64,000 bases of DNA from Haliotis cracherodii. Lineage: Eukaryota. This document shows, piece after piece, positions 37,045 through 38,010 of this stretch. Made by a program: the position numbers and the translations under genes. Where the stretch lies: assembly GCF_022045235.1 (NCBI RefSeq), contig NW_027266284.1:3658001-3722000 (forward strand). The letters run 5' to 3'. The notes under the pieces are model-generated. The model did no database searches. It was not told the DNA's origin and was given only the letters and a program-made list of their open reading frames with translations. Position 1 is the stretch's first letter; every line of letters begins with the position of its first letter.

Positions 37045-38010
37045 ACAACAATTATCGATATTCATTTCACTACAGTTAGACTGTTATCATCCAAGCTTTC
37101 GTGTGCTCCCTGGTTCGATCTGACAGATCAGTACACAAAAATTATTGACACCGCTATTAGTAGACGATAGCTTCCATCATTTCACACTCATCAATTCCGT
37201 GTAAACATCAATGGTTGACTTAGTATGCCGATGTAAACAGGAAACAATGGTTGTCAAGGTAACCTGCGCGGAAGACTGCAGATCGCAATGTGCATCCATG
37301 ACACACGGCGGAACTATGGACCTACGTTAATGCTTTCCAAACGAATTCATCTGATTCGGGAATAAATTCCACATTAATATTGAATAAAGGATGTATTGAG
37401 GAGGCTGAACAAATATCGATATCTCTTCAAGACAGAAATAGTTAAGCGTAAAGCATTTCAAAATCAATTGGTTGGTCCTTAGTCAGAATGATGTACCCAA
37501 AACACCAAGGCGTCCATATCAACAGCACTGGCATCACACAGTGCTAACGATGTAACTACAATATCATACTCACCATGTTGTGCTTAGAACAGAATGTGAC
37601 CTGCCAAAGACGAACTCGCTCGAACCTTTTCGATGGAGACTGGCGAGACGATGAAACTTTGCCAACAGTGGTGATCAATTATATTGGACACGTTGCCAAG
37701 ACAGTCGCTATCAACTTTTTGTCTCAAACATTTTAATAAATTATGAACTCTTGGATATCGGGCATTTTGTCTACATACAGCCGCTGCATCGAGAAGTCAT
37801 GCTTGGTTGATAATGCCGCCTGGGTCAATTGTCTGTGATTGTCTGTATCTCTCGCTCGCGTTGAAAAGCATTAACCAGCACTAATGATATCACAGACGAA
37901 TGGTTGAGTGGTTTACTGAGCGTGTTTTCAATATAAACAATGGTTGACATGGTAGCTGAACAGATGTCGACGCAGCGCAATGCATGCATGTTGAATATTT
38001 CTAAAGACAC
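37045..38010 (-). promoter_or_regulatory. Orphan duplicate of an alpha-tubulin promoter, ATG-only exon 1 (37576-37574) and start of intron 1
   Basis: Near-identical to 23320-23580 and 33835-34135 with intact ACAACATG|GTGAGT; intronic part matches 14380-14560; no exon 2 or 3 of its own. Confidence 0.85.

What the first reader, a model, noticed from the sequence alone, without database searches (positions are those of the whole stretch)
37045..38010. Spare promoter with ATG-only exon 3.7 kb upstream of gene 4: candidate alternative first exon
Seen: an intact 5'UTR-ATG|GTGAGT module, nearly identical to those of genes 3 and 4, has no gene body; the next exon-2 acceptor downstream is that of gene 4 (31344). 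Because exon 1 encodes only Met, splicing from either first exon would give the same MREC protein. Its intronic part resembles the pseudogene's intron 1. Inference: a modular promoter-swapping arrangement in which ATG exons can be duplicated freely, or else the stump of a deleted sixth gene.
Basis: partly seen in the sequence, partly recalled or inferred. Interest (0 to 1): 0.7.

Follow-up and report, generated by a model that had tools for sequence, protein, structure and literature searches.

The report
Stump of a lost tubulin gene
The 'spare' start exon is the front end of a sixth alpha-tubulin gene copy that still has its own first intron and splice acceptor but no coding body, and it is likely a leftover rather than a second working promoter for the next gene.

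Summary
The ATG|GTGAGT exon at 37576-37574 is real, but a key premise of the finding is wrong. The module has its own exon-2 acceptor at 34644-34643 (54 of 68 columns identical to the pseudogene's acceptor; 0 of 200 shuffles reach the score). It is followed by 3-7 nt of exon 2 reading Arg-stop, then directly by gene 4's upstream DNA. So it is the 5' stump (promoter, Met exon, 2931-nt intron, acceptor) of a sixth alpha-tubulin unit. Contigs from 5 of 5 DNA-type runs laid, under four organism labels, cover this junction, so it is old and not an assembly error. Its 179-nt core is 98-99% identical to genes 3 and 4 while flanks are 77-86%. That fits patchy gene conversion, which also touches the dead pseudogene (113/116 patch); selection is not excluded. 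No spare first exon was found among 19 other alpha-tubulin bodies. Splicing 37574->31344 (a PEP1-like second first exon) remains mechanically possible, and the RNA data were uninformative. Verdict: an ordinary relic in a tandem array, with about a 20% chance of use as a second first exon.

The parts
37862..38013 (-). Far-upstream promoter block of the stump, homologous to gene 4 34408-34562 (86%) and gene 3 (77%)
   Evidence: orphan-type contigs in 4 of 4 runs (loose end at 34408 maps to 37832 onward)
37707..37818 (-). Mid promoter block, 75-79% to genes 3, 4 and the pseudogene (background divergence of the units)
37653..37706 (-). Core promoter: CCAAT at 37687 and TATA-like box at 37683, 31 nt before the predicted start; near-identical to genes 3 and 4; 14-nt indel at its upstream edge (polarity unknown)
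   Evidence: motif names recalled, function not tested
37574..37652 (-). Exon 1 (5' UTR plus ATG); start predicted from TATA/initiator spacing; 1-nt deletion in the initiator-like motif, found only in this copy of the four compared
34643..37573 (-). Complete intron 1 of the stump, 2931 nt, GT...AG; colinear patches match intron 1 of the pseudogene and gene 3
34881..36298 (.). 26/52-nt tandem repeat inside the stump's intron, same family as 58653-62301 (inverted)
34643..34700 (-). Relic exon-2 splice acceptor region (AG at 34644-34643), closest to the pseudogene's acceptor
34636..34642 (-). Exon-2 relic, 3-7 nt, reading Arg then stop (TAA); breakpoint to gene 4's upstream DNA, with a short local 8-nt duplication at the joint
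   Evidence: joint covered by contigs
33834..34629 (-). Gene 4 upstream region, exon 1 (ATG 33882-33880) and intron start; 33834-34283 is 98% identical to gene 3
29765..31344 (-). Gene 4 body (exon 2 from 31344, exon 3 to 29765), intact alpha-tubulin reading frame

Best explanation
The module at 34636-38013 is the 5' stump of a sixth alpha-tubulin unit, with promoter, Met-only exon 1, whole intron 1, its own acceptor and a few bases of exon 2 ending in a stop, joined directly to gene 4's upstream DNA, and it is likely a non-coding leftover whose core was likely kept near-identical to genes 3 and 4 by gene conversion. Shown: the anatomy, the stop, the junction in several organisms, and the patchwork of identity. 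Inferred: a deletion removed the rest of exon 2, exon 3 and the spacer before these organisms split (a partial tandem duplication would leave the same junction and cannot be excluded). Inferred: if the promoter fires, splicing would tend to use the stump's own acceptor, giving a Met-Arg-stop frame and a 763-nt leader with 11 further ATGs ahead of gene 4's ATG, so little tubulin would come from it.
For: Relic acceptor: 54/68 columns identical to the pseudogene acceptor, 49/68 to gene 3, 47/68 to gene 4; local score 63 against a shuffle maximum of 26, 0 of 200. Six donors and six acceptors for five bodies in the window. The stump keeps intron sequence that gene 4 lacks (gene 3 22885-23351 equivalent), so it is not a copy of today's gene-4 exon module. 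Gene 3/gene 4 upstream homology ends at the breakpoint (23994 = 34629). Junction inside single contigs in X5 and X1, X7, X9, X11: 5 of 5 DNA-type runs laid, 3 studies, organism labels A-D. In X9 (organism C) the contig leaves the reference at 34660 and runs into the tandem repeat, so most of the intron's 3' end is missing there. Identity is patchy: core 178/179 to gene 3 against 77-80% in flanks (Fisher p 1.6e-12); gene 3/gene 4 share 442/449 in a promoter tract against 87-92% in flanks; the dead pseudogene shares a 113/116 intron patch with gene 3, so near-identity here does not need function. No spare paralogous first exon or relic acceptor among 19 other bodies in 190 kb. At least 41 alpha-type exon-2 matches in the genome, with broken copies among them.
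Against: The stump's core has not decayed while the pseudogene's has (exon 78/79 to gene 3 against 64/79 for the pseudogene), the ATG and donor are perfect, and orphan-type upstream contigs are nearly alike in four organisms. Selection on a working promoter would also give this. Neutrality was not measured. The junction contigs have only 22 laid letters on the gene-4 side (the tool masks 34546-34613), under the tool's 31-letter standard; each record has 22-38 further unlaid letters there. X9 showed depth 19 and 10.7 over 34638-34875 but none beyond 34671, so the loss in organism C may be polymorphic or a sampling effect. One DNA run may be the window's own source.
Confidence: 0.7

Rival explanations
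1. PEP1-like second first exon: the stump's promoter fires, the long 763-nt relic exon is skipped, and 37574 splices to 31344, giving the same MREC tubulin from a second promoter with a different upstream region.
For: Phase-0 Met exon and perfect donor make the join in frame. Core 98-99% identical to genes 3 and 4 despite about 20% flank divergence. Upstream block present in four organisms. Precedent: PEP1 exon 1a and 1b both splice to one exon 2 (PMC3527215).
Against: Own acceptor at 34643 and gene 4's donor at 33879 both lie in between and must be skipped. Copy-specific 1-nt deletion in the initiator-like motif. Conversion explains the identity without selection.
Confidence: 0.2
2. Regulatory stump: it is transcribed, splices to its own acceptor and reads through gene 4's promoter, so it dampens gene 4 by transcriptional interference or makes an untranslated long-leader isoform.
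For: Donor and acceptor are both intact; the relic exon 34642-33880 has no AATAAA/ATTAAA and ends at gene 4's donor. No differences are listed at 34614-34672 for X1, X7 and X11.
Against: In X9 the intron 3' end upstream of 34660 is replaced by the tandem repeat. An AATAAA at 36737 in the intron could end transcripts early. No positive RNA evidence.
Confidence: 0.07
3. Assembly artefact (uncollapsed haplotype or mis-join).
For: Paralogues with 97-98% identical tracts and many tandem repeats surround the site.
Against: The stump differs by about 20% from all paralogues in its flanks; junction and orphan-type upstream contigs occur in independent runs and organisms; unitig ends in X5 (33986) and X9 (33928) fall exactly where a stump-type path is predicted to merge with gene 4.
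Confidence: 0.01

Closest known systems
5'-gene fragment (truncated pseudogene) in a tandem array under birth-and-death evolution with gene conversion (concept recalled, no paper read)
   Same: Colinear homology to intact neighbours, no coding body, stop right after the start, a second broken copy in the same array, patchy near-identity between copies.
   Different: The core promoter, Met exon and donor are still near-perfect, so transcription is not excluded.
PEP1 locus of Arabis alpina (PMC3527215; abstract, search passages and the section 'Structure of the PEP1 locus' read)
   Same: A partial copy (promoter, exon 1, intron 1 sequence) sits upstream of a full gene; both first exons would give the same protein; the authors suggest it may have arisen by rearrangement in an array of full-length genes.
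   Different: In PEP1 both first exons were shown by cDNA to splice to one exon 2; here nothing is shown. The PEP1 partial copy is described as holding part of intron 1, whereas this stump has a whole intron with its own acceptor followed by a stop.
Start-codon (phase 0) introns (Nielsen and Wernersson 2006, PMC1626468; abstract and search passages read)
   Different: The paper's main text does not mention tubulin (0 occurrences) and offers the shuffling idea as a hypothesis; this locus does not demonstrate it.
Clustered protocadherin and UGT1A variable first exons (recalled, not read)
   Same: Several promoter/first-exon units upstream of shared downstream exons.
   Different: Those first exons encode large variable protein parts and have no bodies of their own; here every other first exon has its own body and the exon encodes only Met.

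Membership tests
Alpha-tubulin gene family (flanking genes 3 and 4) | Tubulin GTPase and Tubulin_C domains; closest solved relatives are alpha chains; MREC start | tested here: met
   PF00091 and PF03953 above cut-off for 2 of 3 frames given (the third was not the coding frame); all 60 listed PDB matches are alpha-tubulin or tubulin entries; exon 2 begins RECIS
Truncated gene fragment / 5' stump | Colinear homology to intact paralogues over promoter, exon 1, intron 1 and acceptor | tested here: met
Truncated gene fragment / 5' stump | No coding body; reading frame closed | tested here: met
   No tblastn match between 31344 and 53000; Met-Arg-stop after its own acceptor
Truncated gene fragment / 5' stump | Neutral decay | tested here: inconclusive
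   Flanks decayed to 75-86%, core not; conversion and selection not separated; intron 3' end lost in one run of organism C
PEP1-type duplicated alternative first exon | Duplicated promoter and exon 1 upstream of a full gene, same strand, compatible phase | tested here: met
   Relic acceptor at 34644-34643
PEP1-type duplicated alternative first exon | Transcripts join the upstream exon to the shared exon 2 | tested here: inconclusive
   2 of 6 RNA-guess runs laid, only on 31250-34875; tables swamped by repeats and cut
PEP1-type duplicated alternative first exon | Own transcription start site | not testable with these tools
   Only contigs were offered for RNA-guess runs, and contigs cannot show starts
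Variable-first-exon clusters (protocadherin, UGT1A; recalled) | Many body-less first exons sharing constant exons | tested here: not met
   One body-less exon in the window; none among 19 other bodies examined

The most novel reading that the evidence does not exclude
An old deletion fused the front of one alpha-tubulin gene to the next, and the stump has been kept for millions of years, across four related organisms, as a second promoter for gene 4. That would be a worked example of the proposed shuffling of 5' UTR modules through start-codon introns. In its boldest form the relic acceptor, where exon-2 AGGG became AGGT and made an AG|GT site, would act as a recursive-splicing stepping stone to gene 4's exon 2 (this sub-form about 2%: it needs the second AG, and the new donor GTAATA is weak).
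Probability: 0.2. Interest if true: 0.5.

Novelty: new member of a known kind. Interest (0 to 1): 0.2.

Why it matters
As a relic it matters little: it is a clear example of gene loss and patchy homogenisation in a large tubulin array, and a warning that a perfect promoter and donor can persist on a body-less copy. If junction reads were found, it would be an animal example of a PEP1-like second first exon born from gene loss, and would make the start-codon-intron shuffling hypothesis (PMC1626468) testable at one locus.

Tried and rejected
RNA: the run search listed no holder on record as RNA; 6 of 21 rows were RNA guesses. I laid 2 of these 6 (X15, X12) on 31250-34875. Both had zero depth over 34275-34875 and no listed 33880-31344 joint; 994 joints and 3301 loose ends were not shown and dispersed repeats swamped the tables, so this is no evidence on expression. 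X15 had one contig at 33894-34272 of gene-3/4 type (6 differences; the stump differs by 33 plus 9 gaps there) that passes both predicted stump merge points unbroken; RNA status is a guess and rare paths are dropped, so I do not count it. The stump's own exon (37574-37652) was never laid with any run. Genome search with 37045-38010 found only the in-window paralogues (4 candidates scored); search with 34560-34880 found only microsatellite hits elsewhere (40 of 151 candidates scored). No colinear homology between the stump's far upstream DNA and that of genes 1, 3 or the pseudogene, only dispersed repeats, so deletion and partial duplication stay unresolved. Gene 1 and gene 5 acceptors did not score clearly above shuffles against the relic (8 and 2 of 200). 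In one search my narrow motif found a matching ATG|GT exon for 16 of 19 bodies, 8 further motif hits had no paralogous similarity, and 3 acceptor-like hits were to a repeat part without the AG end; stretches were scanned in separate 10-kb pieces. Comparing cross-organism divergence of the stump's upstream block with its intron was too small a sample to use. Paper searches: searches gave nothing relevant in their listings, searches gave 0 papers, led through a reference list (PMC2518113, passages) to PMC1626468; bioRxiv 10.1101/2023.08.26.554759 (passages) did not bear on the question. I found no paper on this locus in these 7 searches, which did not include the organism's name; 'mollusc' was a guess. 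That alpha-tubulin genes commonly have a Met-only first exon is recalled; here it is supported by 41 of 41 alpha-type matches starting at residue 2. Earlier-findings look-ups returned nothing. No supplements were opened.

Full report
Setting. The window lies in a 1.18-Gb genome (G000:C21:3658001-3722000); I did not identify the organism. It holds five alpha-tubulin bodies: gene 1, a pseudogene, gene 3 and gene 4 on the minus strand, and gene 5 on the plus strand. Each has three exons, the first ending in ATG (AGG in the pseudogene). A genome search gave 43 matches, of which 41 are alpha-type and start at residue 2, as expected if a Met-only first exon is family-wide. The ATG-only exon is therefore nothing special to this module.

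Observation. ATG|GTGAGT lies at 37576-37568. Exon 1 matches gene 3 at 78/79 and gene 4 at 76/79 bases, and the first 46 intron bases are identical to both. No tubulin coding sequence or 3' flank lies between it and gene 4. The intron matches the pseudogene's and gene 3's intron 1 in order: 37471-37573, 37212-37451, 37110-37188, 37025-37065. These parts of the finding hold.

A sensitive self-comparison gave a match of 34636-34700 to 12334-12399, the pseudogene's exon-2 acceptor. Aligned with the true acceptors, the stretch ends in TTGTTTCCAG at 34643 and continues AGG TAA T where the paralogues have AGG GAA T. It has 54/68 identical columns with the pseudogene, 49/68 with gene 3 and 47/68 with gene 4. 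Local scores of the pseudogene, gene 3 and gene 4 acceptors were reached by 0 of 200 shuffles each; those of genes 1 and 5 by 8 and 2 of 200. Right behind it begins DNA homologous to gene 3's upstream region (34629 = 23994), with a short local duplication at the joint. So the module has a complete 2931-nt GT-AG intron, within the range of the others (1390-2731 nt), and the window has six donors and six acceptors for five bodies. The module is a 5' stump of a sixth unit.

Is it real and how old? Single contigs cover 34614-34875 in X5 and X1 (organism A, two studies, 0 differences), X7 (B) and X11 (D) (12 differences and 4 gap letters each, none listed before 34673), and 34614-34660 in X9 (C). 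That is 5 of 5 DNA-type runs laid. Only 22 laid letters lie on the gene-4 side because the tool masks the microsatellite; the records have 22-38 more letters there. In X9 the contig runs from 34660 straight into the tandem-repeat family of 34881-36298, so most of the intron's 3' end is missing in that sample, although one search showed some depth there. Stump-type upstream contigs occur in 4 of 4 runs. Unitig ends at 33986 (X5) and 33928 (X9) equal the predicted merge points of a stump-type path with gene 4; the second suggests, by inference, that organism C also has a copy differing at the initiator-like site. The arrangement thus predates the split of these organisms.

Why is the core so clean? 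In the mid promoter the stump, genes 3/4 and the pseudogene are all 75-80% alike, the age signal of the units. The 179-nt core is 178/179 to gene 3 and 176/179 to gene 4 (Fisher p 1.6e-12 and 8e-8 against flanks), while the pseudogene's exon is 64/79 to gene 3. Selection or conversion could do this. The array shows sharp-edged tracts: genes 3 and 4 share 442/449 over the promoter and 1597/1648 over the body against 87-92% in flanks, and the dead pseudogene shares 113/116 of an intron patch with gene 3. The stump's tract starts at a 14-nt indel and carries a private 1-nt deletion in the initiator-like motif, polarised by the pseudogene. I read this as conversion (inferred); selection is not excluded.

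How it would work. If transcribed, the nearest acceptor gives Met-Arg-stop and a 763-nt exon across gene 4's promoter to gene 4's donor, with 11 ATGs before gene 4's own. To make tubulin the transcript must skip that exon and join 37574 to 31344. This is in frame and has a precedent in PEP1 of Arabis alpina, where two copies of exon 1 splice to one exon 2 (PMC3527215). I could not test it: no run on record as RNA was listed, and the two RNA-guess runs laid were uninformative.

Is free duplication of ATG exons a pattern? In 190 kb from three other array stretches with 19 bodies, 16 bodies had a matching ATG|GT exon and no paralogous first exon or relic acceptor was spare. The genome search found no copy of the module outside the window (4 candidates scored). 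The stump looks like a single event. The idea that start-codon introns let 5' UTRs shuffle is already in print as a hypothesis (PMC1626468).

Verdict. Anatomy as a 5' stump with its own acceptor: about 0.95. Non-productive relic kept tidy by conversion: 0.7. Working second first exon of gene 4: 0.2. Regulatory read-through: 0.07. Artefact: 0.01. Deletion of a once complete gene is favoured over partial duplication because the stump keeps intron DNA that gene 4 lacks and its acceptor is closest to the pseudogene's, but both leave the same junction. Interest 0.2.

Noticed in passing
window 10641-15291 (-): The pseudogene has ATG changed to AGG, lacks the TATA-like segment, and carries an internal piece (11349-11581) that is 94-97% identical to exon 3 of genes 1, 3, 4 and 5 while the rest is about 76-89%: a recent patch from a paralogue.
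   Followed up: partly
window 33883-33888: Gene 4's distinctive bases just before its ATG were not seen in contigs of X5 (same organism label) or X9, which show the gene-3/stump type; possibly a private allele of this assembly.
   Followed up: partly
window 33833/33834: Gene 4's intron 1 lacks about 470 nt present in gene 3 (22885-23351), with a CAG microhomology at the ends.
   Followed up: partly
window 34881-36650 and 58588-62301: The same 26-nt tandem-repeat family in inverted orientation, with a shared 64-nt unique piece (94%); may be a mobile element with internal repeats.
   Followed up: no
window 33894-34272: One contig of RNA-guess run X15 covers about 310 nt upstream of the predicted start of genes 3/4; either DNA in the run or a more upstream start, in a block that the stump lacks.
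   Followed up: partly
G000:C56:16860001-16940000, C9:2885001-2925000, C21:3588001-3658000: Further alpha-tubulin arrays with 10, 5 and 4 bodies; some first exons are near-identical between neighbours, one C56 exon 2 has a stop and one C9 copy is diverged. The genome holds at least 41 alpha-type exon-2 matches.
   Followed up: partly
window 34636-34644: The G-to-T difference in the exon-2 relic makes both a stop and an AG|GT motif resembling a recursive splice site; the donor part is weak.
   Followed up: partly
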